A DNA stretch of 64,000 nt, taken from positions 1-64,000 of the forward strand of contig NW_026852589.1 of assembly GCF_026571515.1 (NCBI RefSeq). The letters run 5' to 3'. Within the stretch, counting starts at the first letter, position 1. Every line of letters starts with the position of its first letter. This DNA comes from Ruditapes philippinarum (lineage: Eukaryota). Positions 6,001 to 51,000 of the stretch are shown piece by piece. Position numbers: made by a program.

Positions 6001-9000
6001 CAGCGATTCCTTCTCAAGCGAAAGGTAAATTGACGGTGAGGTACAGTGAAGGCCCTTAGAAAGTCTTCTGTAGATATAATTTATTAAATGACATTCACAA
6101 GAGCTTGATAATGATCTTGTCATCGCTTTCTCAGCATTAACAATATCAAACTGTTAATGTTTTGTAAGTAGCATAACCTTTAAAGCATATATATTAACAC
6201 ATGTCCTTAGCCTCAAAATGTGCCCGCTGTAGACAGAAGTCATTTAATATACATGTACATATTCCATACATTTAAATCTTCTCCTGTGAAACTACTTATT
6301 TCGTATCATTCAGATAAGTTTGTATTTTTAATTTTTTTAATTGAACAAAAATTTGCGCAAATTATCCGAGGGTGCGTTTCTATTCAATTTAATCAGATCG
6401 ACAATTATTTTGATTTGTCCTTCTCATCGCTTTGGCAAATTAAGGACTTCAAGAAACTAACTAAATCAAATTTTATTTAGTATGTCTGGAAACGTTGTAT
6501 TTAAACTATTTGTCCGTTAAAACACTCCCCGGCAACTGGGCTATATAATTTTTCTTTAGATTTCATCATTGCATACATTAAACAGTTTATCTTACATAAT
6601 TGATTTTAATTTACAAAAATGTACATACCTTCCCCATCATGAAATATTAGGTGTTTTCAAAGATGAGACTTAAAATGAAATAAAATTAGGTTTTAGTTTG
6701 TTAGTTTATTCCTTTAAATGTTTTACCGCTAATGCAGAGATTTTGTTTACTTTTTTGGTACTTTCATTTATTCAATCCAAGATGTCCTTGCAGACTTGAT
6801 ACAAGTTTTACTGATCAAATATTAAAATTCCTCCCTATGGTTTTCTGACATCCCAGTTAATCCATTTTTAAATTGTTAATGCAACATGTCCCGACTAAAT
6901 ACAATTTATCAAGGATAATTTTACAGGATGAAGAAACAACTCGTAAAATGTCCACTTTGATGCCCTTATCATTACATAGGTTAACAATATAGGCAAATAT
7001 ATATTATCCATTAATTAATATAACGTGGATCGAAACACAATGCTATCTGATTTGTACGAGGGGGCAAAGCGTGTATGTTTTAAGATTAAGCAAATGACAA
7101 CATAAATACGCTCATATTTCACAATGCTTAAGTACTTGTGTTCTGTTTGATATTTTGACAATATAATAGTCAAATATTTTAACAGTCATCGACTATAAAT
7201 ATTTCACTGTACATTTTATATGTTTACCATTTTTCCTAGGAATGGTCATTCAACAATTTCTACAACAATTAATTATATTAACTGTAGTATTCTGAAGCAC
7301 AATTTAATTATATACAATGCATGGCTTGCTAAACATGTCTCTTATTGAACATGGACGGAAAATAAGTTCAACAGTATTTAAACATTCTCGTGTGAAACTA
7401 AAAGTGTTGTATGCAGTTACTTCTAATTTATCATTAAAATATTTCAGGAATCTATCTATGCGTGCTTCTTTGTTTACAAGCTTGGCATTTCGTCTTATTT
7501 AATTTGATATTCCACAGAGTTTTAATAATTGTAGAAATGTAGCATATAATTCAATTTACCCACCAATATATTTATTTAATTAAATTGCTCTGGCACTCGA
7601 TAGGTTAACCTGATACGGGATTTCAGAAAAAAGCAAAAGATAATTTCGTTAAGTGTACCTAGCAACTGTTAAACCTCTTTTTATTAACATATTACTGAAA
7701 AAGGTGTAGGAATTTTTGAAGTTTCTTTTGTATTTGTTTCCATTTCAACCAAATGACACATTTCAAAGCAGGTTACATTGTTCGTCAAATCCAACATGAT
7801 AAGCTGAACCCAAAGCATGTACTTAATTTGATAAGCCTAAACAACATCCAGTAAATGTTGTATATTTCAAATTGACGATTTACTCTATATCTAGTTAAAC
7901 AAAATGTAACTTAACGTTGGAAACCTTTGCTAGTCTAAGATAATATATCCAATCTAACACTTTAATTGTGTTTACAAAAAAGCTACATGGACTTTTGAAG
8001 AAATAACAATGTACAAATATTTAGGTCTGATAGAATAATTGATTCCTATAAGTCATTGTAAACAGCGTTCATTGCGATTTCATCAACGCTTTGCTTAATT
8101 AGTTTTCAGTCGAATTATTTCTAAAAATAAATCCGTTTTGTGTACTTTATACGTTAGTACGCCGAACACTTAAAGTACTTCATGTACGAAAAGGTTTGTT
8201 GAAAGTACATCGAACCGTTTTATATCGAATCAACCTCAATTTACTAAACAATTTGGATTTCAGAGGGAAAAACAGCTATGTTAAATGATGCGAATATTCT
8301 TAAGCAATCTAACTTCTCAGTTATTTCTCACTGACAAACACATTTAAATATGTTTCATTTATTGTTGTTAATGGTTACAGTTTAATGGTTTTATTAATTG
8401 TTTTCTTACGTTTTTTTTTCATTTTTGTTAACTGTTGATTGCTTATTATTTTCATACTAAGTCTATATGTAAGTTATGTAAGTATATGATTCTACAAGAT
8501 AGTTGTCTAAAGAGGATTTGTTTGTAACAACTATGAAAGATAGCAACTGTTTTGTGTTTTGGTTGTTGTTTCTTTTTCTAACTGTCCGTGACATAAAAAA
8601 AACGTCACCGGTAAAAAACCGTTTCTATGCGACATCTGTTACAACGGTATAAAGTGACATTTCTGTATATCATTTCTTCTGTACCAGATGAAAAGGAAGA
8701 AAGTGTCTTCGTTCAACTTGTTTCAAGCTTAAATTGTCTCAATATTCAAATACATACGTCTGTCTGATCAAGATTGACGCAATTTCAAACACATATATTT
8801 CATATATAATGCTTGTTTAAAGACAATTTACATTCTTTGATGATTGATTTCCTAACTCTGTAACATATTTTTAAACAATGCCAGCATTTTAAATGATACA
8901 GTTATAAGTTATTGTCGAACATTGGAAAATGTTATCGCTGACAATTTAATATATTTAATAACTTTTCTAAGATTTTAAATCAATGTCACTTATCAATGTA

Positions 9001-48000: not shown

Positions 48001-51000
48001 CTTCTTTATCGGATTATGAAGAAGAGAATGTCTTCCTACACCATTTTTATAAACATTTTATGTAGCTTACATTGTCAAAATATGATTAAAGTTACATTAA
48101 ATAAATTTCATAAAAAAAGAAATAGCGACATTTCATTATAATAAATTAGGTTTCATATCGACTCCAGATCTTATTTTGGTGTCCAGACAACCAAAATGAG
48201 TTTAATGAGCATACAAATGTGCAACCTCATTGTGGCGAATTCTGTAGTACAATTTCTGTTTGCATGAGAAACTCCGCCTTCGGATCATCCGTACATAAAT
48301 ATTAAATCAACAAACATGACTATAAGTAGCCGTCCTAATTTAACAGTATATTTCCGCATTATAACGGATATTTTCATACTAATTTAATCTTTTTTATGAG
48401 ATGATTATTTTTTTCTGAACCACAGGCCTCGTGCACCGTGAAGCTTAAACGGTAAAAAGTGTGTTTGCACAAGAAAATCTTATATTTGCTGTGTTCCGGA
48501 TAGCAACTATAACACCGTGACGTAGCGCATACACGAGCTGATTATAGTCTTCATTTGCATGTTAAAATTCGTATACGAACTTTAGTGTTACCCTGGGGTT
48601 TTCCATTTAAAATCCTAATTTATGAACAATATTTGATGAGATTCACAACGATTCTGTTAAAATGGTTAATGAAACTGTAGAATGCTTGGTTTTTAGGCCG
48701 ACAGCAAAAATATTTTAACATATTTTTTTAGTGTAGCTTTAATTCCAAATAGATTCTTCCATCTGTATACATAAGTCAAGCTTTACTCACTTATAAAGAA
48801 ATGAATTAAATGTAAATAAAATTATAGTTTTTCTGTTATACATTCAATATTTAGTCTCCTCAGGTGACCATAAATAATGTACAAAAGGGCAACAGAGGTA
48901 TTCCTCAACAAGTTAAGCTGAAACATCGCTAAATGACCTATACTGTGTCAGTGTGTCGAAAACCCAATCAAACAAACAAACAATGTTTGTTCTCATTCAT
49001 TTTAAGATTAATTCTTAAACTCTGATATATATTCAGAATCTGTAAATATATTTAATACTATAAAAATGAGACAAAATGATCGTTTGATGATTTTTGATAT
49101 AAATAATACCTTTTTGAGATTCCTATCAATATATAAATAAGTAAACAAAAACTGTGATAAGAAATTATGAGTAAGTAGAGAGACTTGCTATTTAAATTAA
49201 GTGCATGAAAGTATTTTAATGTATATAAAATTTTTAAAACTAACGACAATCCGCTACAGGAATGTAGTTTAACATCTGCCTTAATCAAGTATTGCATTTT
49301 AATGGTTTTTTTATGATTTCAATAGGATTATTTTGCTTAACAAAATTTATCGTGAAATTATATTAATTGTGAGATAAAGTCTTTTGAAAGTTGCCTTTTC
49401 TTTAGTTTGTTTCCATAACAACAATTTTGTACTCGTATATTTTACGAACTTCCAGTGTAGGTGGTATGTGGCTTGTAATAACTTTTTTCCAGATATTGTA
49501 ATTATCTTAATTTGTTTTAATTTTGCTTTAATTGTACACATTTTGTTCGTATTGTAGCATACTTAATATATTTATTTGATTTTTAAGTTTATTTTTCATA
49601 TGTATCAATTTAATATTGTCTATTGTTTTTGAATTAAGTGATTGGTTTTATGTTACAGTAGTGGTTTTAAATTTTAATTAGCCTATCAAAGTTCACCAAA
49701 GACACAAATTGGGTTACCGAATGTAATAAACATAAATTCAGTTTCTGAATAGCAAATGAAGTGCAAATTCGTTTGGTAAAAGTACATTGAACTATGTTAT
49801 GCCGAATTAAACGCAATTTGTTTAACATATCGATATCATAGGATATTAACAGATTACGTTTAGTGAAGCGAATGTTATCAGTTCGGTAAATGATATTTAT
49901 GAGCCAGGTCAACGTTTGAAAAAAGTGACATTATGATCATTTTTTTTCTCTGTTACTTTGAGCCGAACAATCTTTTAATTTCAAAGATTCTATATTATCT
50001 TTATATTTTAAACAGAAAAAGTATCCATCCTTATAATATGGTATGACAATGCTATTTCATTTTCTATTTGTAAGTATCTTGGTGTTGTATAAAAGGAATA
50101 CAAGCAAAAGTCGGGAAGATATAATTAATCCTTGCATTCCCGTTAAAACATCTAAAGACGCGTGAATAAAAATTTAGAAAATAAAGTTTCTACAATTTGA
50201 AACAAAATGTCGTTCATTTATTAACATCCGGCAATTTGCCAATTTGTGTGTTTGTTTAATATGCTTAATCAAAAATTTATCTTATAAGTTATTTTATAAA
50301 ACATTGGACAATAAAGAGAAACACATCTTATTAAAGCACTTGAAACCTAGCAAAAGAGTAATTGACATAGTTTCTTTGGAAACAAAATGTTTGTTTACGA
50401 TAGCTGAAACAATTTCAAATACAAAAATGCATATAGCAATCATATTCTGTATTGAAGAAACGGATGATGTAATTCCGTATTTATATATTTGTAATTGCCA
50501 AACAGCTGTCACATAAATTGTACGCCTTTCATCAAAGATAAGATTAATGCAAGGCGGCAAACGTAAACATAGCGATAATAAAGTATGTGTATTGTTTAGA
50601 CATTCATAAAATTTAATGAATATGTAATGAAGCTCTTAATGCGTGGCGGAGTCTTTATGGAAGACAACTGACAAAAAAAAATGTTAAAATATTCTTATTT
50701 AGAATAAGAGGACATGCTCCATATCATATACATAAAAATGAATAGAGATGGCATCGTTAACCAAAGTGTATTGCATATACAGATAGAAGATAACAAACAA
50801 TAAAGTCGGTAAAATGTTATTTCCACTTCCGTCATCTTTTATAACAAAAAAAAACACCAACAAAAAACAAAACAAAAAAAAAACACCAACAAAAAAAGAG
50901 AAAAAGAAATGACATCGTTTTACTAAAAAGTCAGTAAGTGCATGAGTGCGTGCGTGCGTGCATGTTTGCGTAAGTGAATGAGTATAAAAGTTTTTTGTTT

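What the first reader, a model, noticed from the sequence alone, without database searches (positions are those of the whole stretch)
6070..49920. Nested duplication: an ancient A/B module pair re-duplicated to give four gene-less modules
Within copy 1, module A (about 6070-10400) and module B (about 13070-20260) share collinear, strongly diverged anchors: 6150-6310~13170-13320, 6660-6720~13820-13875, 6975-7005~14370-14400, 7385-7640~15319-15590, 8190-8310~17320-17430, 8590-8745~18755-18920 and 10265-10390~20120-20260. The pair then duplicated again (A2 about 32780-39220; B2 about 41050-49920, with the start of B deleted). Repeated expansion of a 5-8 kb cassette with retained islands but no ORF suggests an array of regulatory modules, alternative promoters/first exons, or lncRNA units (inference).
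[Added by the scan's program, not by the reader: the finding's places include an assembly gap (unread letters, written N; its length is only estimated) at 13494 to 13629. Whether the letters on both sides are continuous or in frame is not known: test that first.]
Basis: partly seen in the sequence, partly recalled or inferred. Interest (0 to 1): 0.7.

Follow-up and report, generated by a model that had tools for sequence, protein, structure and literature searches.

The report
Nested duplications of gene-less DNA
A stretch of non-coding, AT-rich DNA was copied at least three times in succession, and the short matching "islands" between the oldest copies look like what neutral decay leaves behind, not preserved functional elements.

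Summary
The structural observation is real. A ~20 kb segment (2014-21801) is repeated in direct order at 24355-51768 (10,879 aligned columns, 16.5% mismatch, K2P 0.19). Each copy holds two older paralogous modules, A and B (K2P 0.32-0.38). All are collinear, and B2 has lost the start of B. No ORF, Pfam domain, tRNA or Rfam family is present.

The functional reading is not supported. On independent branches the anchors change as fast as their surroundings (56/567 against an expected ~0.087). A neutral simulation calibrated on the young pair gives the observed number, size, coverage and identity of islands at 2-2.5 times its age. Two of the anchors belong to a ~300 bp repeat (X) with 12 copies in the window, including copies outside the modules and one inverted.

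Six or seven other blocks are 93% identical between the young copies (background 83.5%). The one block with an outgroup (a4) fits gene conversion, not long-term constraint.

Part of A2 (about 33.4-36.7 kb) looks like homopolymer-stuttered, low-quality sequence.

Verdict: an ordinary, diverged, nested segmental duplication. Transcription could not be tested.

The parts
2014..21801 (+). Copy 1 of the young ~20 kb direct duplication (pre-A, A1, spacer, B1, post-B)
   Evidence: 23-HSP collinear chain to 24355-51768; mismatch 0.165, K2P 0.187
24355..51768 (+). Copy 2 of the young duplication (27.4 kb; longer because of copy-specific insertions and noisy patches)
   Evidence: unaligned segments of up to 2,934 bp in copy 2
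6108..10372 (+). Module A1
   Evidence: first and last A1~B1/B2 anchors
13074..20227 (+). Module B1 (holds the N gap)
   Evidence: A2~B1 and A1~B1 chains
32783..39200 (+). Module A2
   Evidence: A2~B1/B2 chains; lacks a4; its a2 is highly diverged
41060..49880 (+). Module B2; its 5' end is truncated at 41060
   Evidence: HSPs abut at 41060; copy-1 segment 12968-14314 has no counterpart
13494..13629 (.). Assembly gap (136 N), not filled
   Evidence: flanking anchors are collinear with A1
12968..14314 (+). Start of B, present in copy 1 only (deleted in B2); carries anchors a1 (13126-13319) and a1b (13825-13877)
7325..7716 (+). Anchor a2 in A1 (paralogs at 15260-15654, 41853-42186, 34111-34416)
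   Evidence: 135 and 162 bits to B1/B2; 57-67 bits for A2
8567..8797 (+). Anchor a4 in A1 (paralogs at 18719-18985 and 47920-48048; none found in A2)
   Evidence: 89.7 and 78.3 bits
18742..18924 (+). a4 core in B1: low-divergence block against B2 47907-48090 (13/183 mismatches)
   Evidence: A1-B mismatch there is 0.27-0.30, so no constant constraint
8015..8323 (+). X repeat, copy A1x1. Twelve copies in all: near 8015-8345, 9980-10400, 16900-17215, 17225-17440, 19880-20250, 35819-36135, 38840-39230, 45170-45490, 45495-45705, 49540-49890, 52960-53310 and 61660-61935(-)
52995..53303 (+). Isolated X copy 'C', outside the four modules
   Evidence: 81 bits to 8015-8323; groups with the x1-type copies
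61364..61931 (-). Inverted partial copy 'D' of the x2 end of module A (10014-10677)
   Evidence: 172 bits; K2P 0.28-0.30; branches outside the A/B x2 clade
11043..11290 (+). Low-divergence block (17/240 mismatches against 39892-40131), non-coding
20742..21021 (+). Low-divergence block (18/267 mismatches against 50405-50686), non-coding
   Evidence: a diverged further copy lies at 55796-56090
12646..12820 (+). Low-divergence block (12/164 mismatches against 40747-40912)
33400..36700 (.). Three patches of homopolymer-inflated sequence inside A2 (about 33400-34500, 34800-35700, 36200-36700): suspected low-quality sequence
   Evidence: mean run length 2.0-2.9 against a window median of 1.46; these are the only flagged 500-bp windows in the 64 kb

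Best explanation
This is a patch of non-coding DNA, intergenic or deep intronic, from an AT-rich non-vertebrate genome. It has been duplicated locally several times and has since decayed essentially neutrally.

Order of events (shown):
- An X-bearing sub-unit was already present twice in the ancestral module.
- The module was duplicated to give A and B (K2P about 0.32-0.38).
- The whole ~20 kb block holding A and B was duplicated in direct orientation (K2P 0.19).
- B2 then lost 1.35 kb at its start, and each copy took up its own insertions, including transposons with terminal inverted repeats.

Nature of the anchors (shown statistically): the 'retained islands' between A and B are the fragments that still align after point substitution, small indels and kilobase-scale insertion and deletion. 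They are not elements evolving more slowly than their surroundings.

Mechanism (inferred, not shown): the duplications arose by unequal crossing-over or replication-based template switching. The few 93-98% blocks between the young copies are inferred to be later gene-conversion tracts, or local rate variation, and not ancient functional elements.
For: Architecture and order.

No coding capacity:
- The longest ORF is 122 aa, within the shuffle range of 93-164 aa.
- Conservation between copies carries stops in all frames, and amino-acid identity is not above nucleotide identity.
- 5 of 258 ORFs of 50 aa or more hit Pfam, all at E 0.004-0.009, where about 2.6 are expected by chance.

No known or structured RNA:
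- Rfam gave 0 hits at gathering thresholds and 0 at E<=1 on the whole window. One sub-threshold mir-190 match (28.7 bits, cut-off 48) appeared in a 16 kb sub-scan.
- No tRNA.
- RNAalifold found 0 pairs across the 12 X copies, folded as the plus strand only.

No slow-down of the anchors:
- B2-branch changes 56/567 = 0.099, B1-branch 54/526 = 0.103, A2-branch 38/361 = 0.105 and A1-branch 54/459 = 0.118, against about 0.081-0.087 expected.
- A two-fold slow-down would predict about 25 of 567 (arithmetic).

Neutral simulation calibrated on the young pair (simulated p 0.157-0.159, 0.023-0.027 gap opens per column and coverage 0.44-0.56; real values 0.165, 0.026 and 0.40-0.55):
- At 2.0-2.5 times the age it gives 3.9-5.2 HSPs, coverage 0.07-0.13, mismatch 0.275-0.30 and a median HSP of about 230 bp.
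- The observed values are 3-6 HSPs, coverage 0.067-0.142 and mismatch 0.256-0.299.

a4 core: B1-B2 mismatch is 0.071, but A1-B is 0.273-0.298. That equals the other anchors and rejects a constant-constraint expectation of about 0.11-0.12 (p = 3e-8).

The region tolerates insertions: a 1,752-bp Transib-like element in copy 1 only, and a 2.9-kb TIR element in copy 2 only.
Against: Divergence between the young copies is not uniform.
- 100-column windows have SD 0.048 against a binomial 0.037 (chi-square p = 8e-5).
- 412 windows have 7 or fewer mismatches, against a mean of 44 in 2,000 permutations. They define 6-7 blocks of 117-267 columns at about 93% identity.
- Some of these blocks are richer in G+C (0.36-0.39 against 0.29), and by my reading of the printed alignments, not a formal count, they have few indels.
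- Such blocks could be constrained non-coding elements. Only one of them (a4) could be tested with an outgroup.

Anchor columns are more often still aligned between B1 and B2 (775/862) than other columns (4110/6625). Some of this is expected without selection, because non-anchor DNA includes B1-specific insertions. The opposite holds in A (485/1096 against 3815/5972).

The simulation is a simple model of my own, with 12 replicates per age.

No expression, chromatin or cross-species data could be consulted.
Confidence: 0.65

Rival explanations
1. One reading: the four modules are functional units, such as an array of cis-regulatory modules, alternative promoters or non-coding first exons, or lncRNA units. 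The anchors would then be their conserved cores.
For: The anchors are collinear and keep their orientation in all modules. There is real rate heterogeneity between the young copies, with G+C-richer blocks at 93-98% identity, one of which (a4) is an A/B anchor. The plus strand has an excess of T over A (23,111 against 22,137, z = 4.6), which could fit transcription through the region.
Against: Anchors evolve no more slowly than background on independent branches. A neutral simulation reproduces them. A1-B divergence at a4 is ordinary. No a4 counterpart was found in A2. There is no conserved open frame or splice-bounded exon and no RNA structure or family. Most low-divergence blocks are not A/B anchors.
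Confidence: 0.15
2. The young duplicates carry a handful of constrained non-coding elements, the 93% blocks. These could be enhancers or exons of a non-coding transcript, and they were duplicated with the block. They are unrelated to the A/B module idea.
For: There are 6-7 blocks of 117-267 columns at about 93% identity against 83.5% (412 windows against a permutation mean of 44). G+C is up to 0.39, the blocks appear to have few indels (my reading of the printed alignments), and some have sharp edges.
Against: The only block with an outgroup (a4) is not conserved to A1, as expected for gene conversion. Gene conversion lowers substitutions and indels together and can raise G+C. All blocks have stops in nearly every frame. 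The a4 hairpin is marginal: z is -2.0 to -3.7 in the B copies and -0.85 to +0.17 in A1.
Confidence: 0.2
3. The similarities come from mobile DNA and not from local segmental duplication. X would be a short interspersed or MITE-like element, and the 'modules' would be remnants of a larger composite element.
For: X has 12 copies in 64 kb, including one isolated copy (C) and one inverted copy (D) outside the modules. Other dispersed short repeats and two TIR transposon insertions are present.
Against: Five to six different anchors keep the same order and strand in each module, and a1, a2 and a4 occur only in the modules. Young pairs of X are sisters, as expected for copying with the block. D extends about 660 bp into unique module sequence. 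I did not search systematically for terminal repeats or target duplications around X.
Confidence: 0.1
4. The duplication is an assembly artefact, such as uncollapsed haplotypes or a mis-join.
For: The window has an N gap. It also has patches of homopolymer-inflated sequence in A2, flanked by a suspicious 285-bp near-identical direct repeat at 34578-34859 and 35662-35944.
Against: The copies differ at 16.5% of aligned sites and by dozens of indels and kilobase insertions. Each has its own transposon insertions. That is far beyond haplotype divergence or read error. The anomalous patches are confined to about 33.4-36.7 kb.
Confidence: 0.03

Closest known systems
Tandem or segmental duplications (low-copy repeats) of non-coding DNA, with neutral decay
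   Same: Direct, collinear, kilobase-scale paralogous blocks close together, in several nested rounds. They carry copy-specific transposon insertions and deletions and possible gene-conversion tracts.
   Different: These are much more diverged than the class as usually catalogued. The usual threshold, recalled and not from any call, is >=90% identity over >=1 kb. Here identity is 83.5% gap-free for the young pair and 70-74% for A/B. No gene lies in the unit.
Clusters of alternative first exons or promoters (protocadherin- or UGT1A-type loci; recalled knowledge)
   Same: Tandem paralogous units of several kilobases in one orientation.
   Different: Those units each carry a long open exon ending in a splice donor. 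Here no ORF exceeds chance, and the conserved pieces have stops in all frames.
Duplicated cis-regulatory modules and conserved non-coding elements
   Same: Short non-coding islands of similarity in conserved order.
   Different: The defining property, evolution slower than neighbouring neutral DNA, was tested for the A/B anchors and not found.
Polycistronic miRNA or snoRNA host loci with repeated units
   Same: A repeated short element (X, a core of about 130-300 nt) at 2-4 kb spacing in gene-less DNA.
   Different: No Rfam match, no consensus structure among the 12 X copies (plus strand only), and no stable hairpin.

Membership tests
Segmental duplication (strict catalogue definition, recalled: >=1 kb and >=90% identity) | Paralogous blocks of >=1 kb within one genome | tested here: met
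   19.8 kb against 27.4 kb, 23 collinear HSPs
Segmental duplication (strict catalogue definition, recalled: >=1 kb and >=90% identity) | >=90% sequence identity | tested here: not met
   83.5% in gap-free columns for the young pair and 70-74% for A/B. This is a diverged, older duplication of the same kind.
   K2P 0.32-0.38 against 0.187. In the X tree, young pairs are sisters with support 91-100, and the x2 clade is ((A1,A2),(B1,B2)) with support 83/83.
Conserved non-coding elements / regulatory modules | Substitution rate lower than flanking neutral DNA | tested here: not met
   For the A/B anchors: 0.099-0.118 per branch against about 0.081-0.087 expected, and 0.152 against 0.174 pairwise, p = 0.145. 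The neutral simulation matches.
Conserved non-coding elements / regulatory modules | The same property, for the 6-7 low-divergence blocks between the young copies | tested here: inconclusive
   The blocks are significantly less diverged, but the one block with an outgroup shows no long-term conservation. Gene conversion is not excluded.
Alternative first-exon arrays | Each unit has an open exon with a splice donor | tested here: not met
   No ORF beyond chance. Stop-free frames shared by the copies are short, and their amino-acid identity is no higher than nucleotide identity.
lncRNA or other transcription units | Evidence of transcription, a transcription start, splicing | not testable with these tools
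   No expression data and no eukaryotic genome collection are on hand.
miRNA / snoRNA / other Rfam families | Match to a covariance model at the gathering score, or a conserved structure | tested here: not met
   0 hits at gathering thresholds and 0 at E<=1 on the whole window. One mir-190 match of 28.7 bits against a cut-off of 48 in a sub-scan. 0 consensus pairs in X, plus strand only.
Interspersed repeat (for the X element) | Many copies at unrelated sites, both orientations, defined termini | tested here: inconclusive
   12 copies in the window, one isolated and one inverted. Termini and target duplications were not examined, and the genome-wide count is not available.
Transib DNA transposon (side observation, 3362-5113) | 5-bp target-site duplication | tested here: met
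   TAAAT on both sides, and an empty site in copy 2. The criterion comes from passages of PMC1131882.
Transib DNA transposon (side observation, 3362-5113) | Terminal inverted repeats starting with a CAC heptamer, then a 23-bp spacer and an A-rich nonamer | tested here: inconclusive
   81-nt TIRs begin CACGGTG. I saw no A-rich nonamer at the 23-bp spacing (by eye).
Transib DNA transposon (side observation, 3362-5113) | RAG1-like transposase | tested here: not met
   No Pfam hit among the ORFs of 50 aa or more, which include those inside the element. If it is Transib, it is a non-autonomous copy.

The most novel reading that the evidence does not exclude
The locus could be a duplicated non-coding transcription unit or regulatory landscape. 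The 93-98% blocks (2301-2418, 6304-6440, 11043-11290, 12646-12820, 18742-18924, 20742-21021) would be its functional pieces, exons of a lncRNA or enhancers kept in both young copies. The X element, recurring every 2-4 kb, would act as a reiterated promoter-like or protein-binding site. That would make this an expanding array of non-coding units.
Probability: 0.1. Interest if true: 0.45.

Novelty: new member of a known kind. Interest (0 to 1): 0.15.

Why it matters
As it stands this is a worked example, not a discovery. Collinear islands of similarity between old non-coding duplicates are easily read as conserved elements. Here an independent-branch rate test and a calibrated neutral simulation show that they need no function.

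It would matter more if transcription or regulatory activity were found at the low-divergence blocks. The locus would then document stepwise expansion of a non-coding unit.

Practically, the report flags a probable low-quality patch inside A2 (about 33.4-36.7 kb) and a gap in B1. Anyone using this assembly region should check both.

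Tried and rejected
Coding exons: rejected.
- tblastx of the window against itself shows conservation in all six frames, with stops.
- The 32 stop-free shared segments of 25 aa or more are short, and their amino-acid identity is low.
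- The X alignment contains single-base indels.
- Pfam on all 258 ORFs of 50 aa or more gave 5 hits at chance level.

Structured RNA: rejected.
- Rfam at gathering thresholds and at E<=1 gave nothing on the whole window. The only sub-threshold match was mir-190 at 7139-7189 (E 0.07 in a 16 kb scan), which was absent from the whole-window scan.
- No tRNA or tmRNA.
- RNAalifold on X, folded as the plus strand only, found no pairs.
- The a4 inverted repeat folds only marginally better than shuffles in B1/B2 and no better in A1.

Constraint on the anchors: tested four ways and not found.

'A2 decayed because selection was relaxed': considered after (A1-A2 56.7% against A1-B 65-66% at a2). The relative-rate test shows that A1 is not slow (28/259 = 0.108) and A2 is fast (61/259 = 0.236). 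The fast stretch coincides with homopolymer-inflated sequence. I therefore treat it as probably a sequence-quality problem and not as evolution.

Retention of anchors in B1-B2 (90% against 62%): not used as evidence, because non-anchor DNA includes lineage-specific insertions.

Homopolymer compression: the 802-bp noisy stretch, once compressed, matched nothing else in the window, so its origin is open.

Not done:
- The permissive blastn scoring gave 6 reversed-sequence hits at E<1e-3, so hits below about 40 bits were not relied on.
- I did not use the large protein searches, structure prediction or complex prediction, because no candidate protein exists.
- The prokaryotic genome collection and the phage, plasmid and E. 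coli collections were not searched, because they cannot hold this eukaryote-like DNA.
- Whether the modules, anchors or X recur elsewhere in this genome or in related species stayed unchecked.

Full report
What the window is.
- It is 64 kb with 29% G+C and CpG observed/expected of 0.90. It has one N run at 13494-13629 (136 N).
- I do not take it for human or vertebrate DNA. The composition, the lack of CpG depletion and a Transib-like transposon (below) point to an AT-rich invertebrate-type genome. The organism could not be identified, because no eukaryotic genome collection is on hand.
- No gene is detectable. The longest stop-to-stop ORF is 122 aa, and 20 shuffles of the window gave 93-164 aa.
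- Of all 258 ORFs of 50 aa or more, 5 matched a Pfam family. All were at E 0.004-0.009 and to unrelated families, with about 2.6 expected by chance.
- There is no tRNA and no Rfam family, either at gathering scores or at E<=1. One sub-threshold mir-190 match (28.7 bits against a cut-off of 48) appeared only in a 16 kb sub-scan.

The gap.
- The N run lies in B1, inside a 1.35 kb segment (12968-14314) that copy 2 lacks. No reading frame is at stake.
- The anchors on the two sides (13126-13319 and 13825-13877) match A1 at 6108-6300 and 6670-6722, in the same order and strand.
- The right-hand anchor scores only 39.7 bits, against a null maximum of 38.3. The next strong anchor (15260-15654, 135 bits) is collinear too.
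- The scaffold join therefore agrees with the homology map.
- The read bases between the two flanking anchors number 369, the same as the A1 spacing. This hints at a short true gap but is imprecise.

- A sensitive self-comparison gives one chain of 23 plus-strand HSPs from 2014->24355 to 21801->51768. It has 10,879 aligned columns, gap-free mismatch 0.165 and K2P 0.187, and covers 55% of copy 1 and 40% of copy 2. The young duplication is larger than the finding and starts about 4 kb to its left.
- Within each copy, A and B are related by collinear chains of 3-6 HSPs with mismatch 0.26-0.30 and K2P 0.32-0.38.
- nhmmer of A1 against the reversed window found nothing at E<=10. With the permissive blastn scoring, the reversed-sequence null reached 38.3 bits.
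- Further collinear anchors exist: 38133-38230 ~ 19212-19307 and 38705-38896 ~ 19877-20064.
- The deletion of the start of B in copy 2 is clean, because the two flanking HSPs abut at 41060.

Two of the anchors are one repeat.
- The anchors near 8190 and 10265, and their partners, belong to one family, X. X has a core of about 130 nt within a unit of about 300-400 bp and 12 copies in the window.
- There are two copies per A module and three per B module (one a local tandem copy). There is also an isolated copy at 52995-53303 and an inverted copy within 61364-61931, which extends about 660 bp into module-A-like sequence.
- A maximum-likelihood tree of the 12 copies puts every young pair together (support 91-100). 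It gives ((A1,A2),(B1,B2)) for the x2 type with D outside, and it separates the x1 and x2 types at the base.

K2P for the duplication layers in the window:

| Layer | K2P |
|---|---|
| 285-bp repeat inside A2 | 0.037 |
| Copy 1 / copy 2 | 0.187 |
| Inverted repeat 55730-57926 / 60816-58594 | 0.24 |
| D against A | 0.28-0.30 |
| A against B | 0.32-0.38 |

Are the islands constrained?
- To avoid ascertainment bias, I defined anchors from one pair (A1~B1) and counted changes on a branch that played no part in finding them (B2), at columns where A1 = B1.
- That gave 56/567 = 0.099. About 0.087 is expected from half the non-anchor B1-B2 mismatch (717/4110 = 0.174).
- The three reciprocal tests gave 54/526 = 0.103, 38/361 = 0.105 and 54/459 = 0.118.
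- Pairwise B1-B2 mismatch inside anchors is 118/775 = 0.152 (Fisher p = 0.145).
- A two-fold slow-down would predict about 25 of 567. The anchors evolve like their surroundings.

Neutral simulation.
- I simulated neutral decay with substitutions, small indels and kilobase insertions and deletions, calibrated on the young pair. The simulation gave p 0.157-0.159, 0.023-0.027 gap opens per column and coverage 0.44-0.56. The real values are 0.165, 0.026 and 0.40-0.55.
- At 2.0-2.5 times that age, the same pipeline returns 3.9-5.2 HSPs, coverage 0.07-0.13, mismatch 0.275-0.30 and a median HSP of about 230 bp.
- The observed values are 3-6 HSPs, coverage 0.067-0.142, mismatch 0.256-0.299 and HSPs of 53-392 bp.
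- Collinear 'retained islands' are what neutral decay leaves.

What does not fit a uniform rate.
- Identity between the young copies is over-dispersed: SD 0.048 against 0.037, chi-square p = 8e-5.
- 412 windows of 100 columns have 7 or fewer mismatches, against a mean of 44 in 2,000 permutations.
- They define blocks at 2301-2418, 6304-6440, 11043-11290, 12646-12820, 18742-18924 and 20742-21021, plus a composite one across an insertion. Each is about 93% identical, and some have G+C of 0.36-0.39.
- All have stops in nearly every frame.
- Only one, the a4 core, is an A/B anchor and so has an outgroup. There B1-B2 mismatch is 13/183 = 0.071, but A1-B1 and A1-B2 are 0.273 and 0.298. That is the same as the other anchors and far above the 0.11-0.12 expected if the slow-down had held since the A/B split (p = 3e-8).
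- This fits a B1/B2 gene-conversion tract or a B-specific effect. It does not fit an ancient conserved core.
- Its inverted repeat folds only marginally: z is -2.0 to -3.7 in B1/B2 and -0.85 to +0.17 in A1.
- For the other blocks, constraint and conversion cannot be told apart here.

A2 and sequence quality.
- At anchor a2, A1 is closer to B1/B2 (65-66%) than to A2 (57%), and no a4 counterpart was found in A2.
- A relative-rate test shows that A1 is ordinary (28/259 = 0.108) and A2 is accelerated (61/259 = 0.236).
- The accelerated stretch coincides with three patches (about 33400-34500, 34800-35700 and 36200-36700) in which nearly every base, G and C included, stands in a homopolymer run. The mean run is 2.0-2.9 against a window median of 1.46, and up to 43% of G/C bases lie in runs of 3 or more, against a median of 4%. 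These are the only flagged 500-bp windows in the 64 kb.
- The worst patch (34860-35661) lies exactly between the two arms of the 285-bp near-identical repeat. After homopolymer compression it matches nothing else in the window.
- I read this as probable uncorrected read sequence or a gap-fill artefact (inference; reads are needed). I do not use A2's 'decay' as evidence about selection.

Conclusion.
- The finding is a real, nested, diverged segmental duplication of gene-less DNA.
- The evidence favours neutral decay over an array of functional modules (confidence about 0.65).
- Transcription, chromatin and cross-species conservation could not be tested.
- The bolder reading, a duplicated non-coding transcription unit whose functional parts are the 93-98% blocks, gets about 0.1.

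The Transib criteria cited in the side notes come from PMC1131882. I saw its search listing, the start of its abstract and passages found by term search, but not its supplementary figures.

Noticed in passing
window 3362-5113: A 1,752-bp insertion present only in copy 1, with an empty site in copy 2 near 26825-26828. It has 81-nt terminal inverted repeats beginning CACGGTG (6% diverged) and a 5-bp direct duplication, TAAAT. It is a Transib-like, non-autonomous DNA transposon that inserted after the young duplication. I saw no A-rich nonamer and no transposase.
   Followed up: partly
window 33400-36700 (patches near 33400-34500, 34800-35700, 36200-36700): Homopolymer-inflated sequence: mean run length 2.0-2.9 against a median of 1.46, with G and C also in runs. 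It looks like uncorrected read sequence. It inflates A2 and lowers its identity to A1.
   Followed up: partly
window 34578-34859 and 35662-35944: A 285-bp direct repeat at about 95-96% identity (K2P 0.037) flanks the noisiest 800 bp. It is either a very recent local duplication or a gap-fill artefact.
   Followed up: partly
window 26897-29806: A 2.9-kb insertion present only in copy 2, with 43-nt terminal inverted repeats (91% complementary) and subterminal copies of the same motif. The target-site duplication is not clear, and there is no ORF with a Pfam hit.
   Followed up: partly
window 55730-57926 and 58594-60816: A large inverted repeat with arms of about 2.2 kb (K2P 0.24) and a spacer of about 670 bp. 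The arms contain diverged copies of 20744-21050 and 25916-26117.
   Followed up: partly
window 30474-31291: A 349-bp tandem repeat of about 2.4 copies (76% matches), inside a segment present only in copy 2.
   Followed up: no
window 25905-26117, 56805-57021(-), 48872-48965(-), 44489-44521(-): A short dispersed repeat with at least four copies. Several lie in copy-2-specific segments, so it is probably a small mobile element.
   Followed up: no
window 12725-12802 and 12990-13061: A 75-bp local direct repeat (73% identical, 49.7 bits) lies at the junction between the end of the A-side spacer and the start of B. It may mark the old duplication boundary.
   Followed up: no
whole window: There is an excess of T over A on the plus strand (23,111 against 22,137, z = 4.6) and a slight excess of C over G (z = 1.9). 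This strand asymmetry could reflect transcription or replication direction, but the duplicated copies are not independent samples.
   Followed up: no
window 7440-7555 and 19713-19831: An off-chain similarity between part of anchor a2 and a second place in B1 (46.8 bits, above the null maximum of 38.3). It is unexplained.
   Followed up: no
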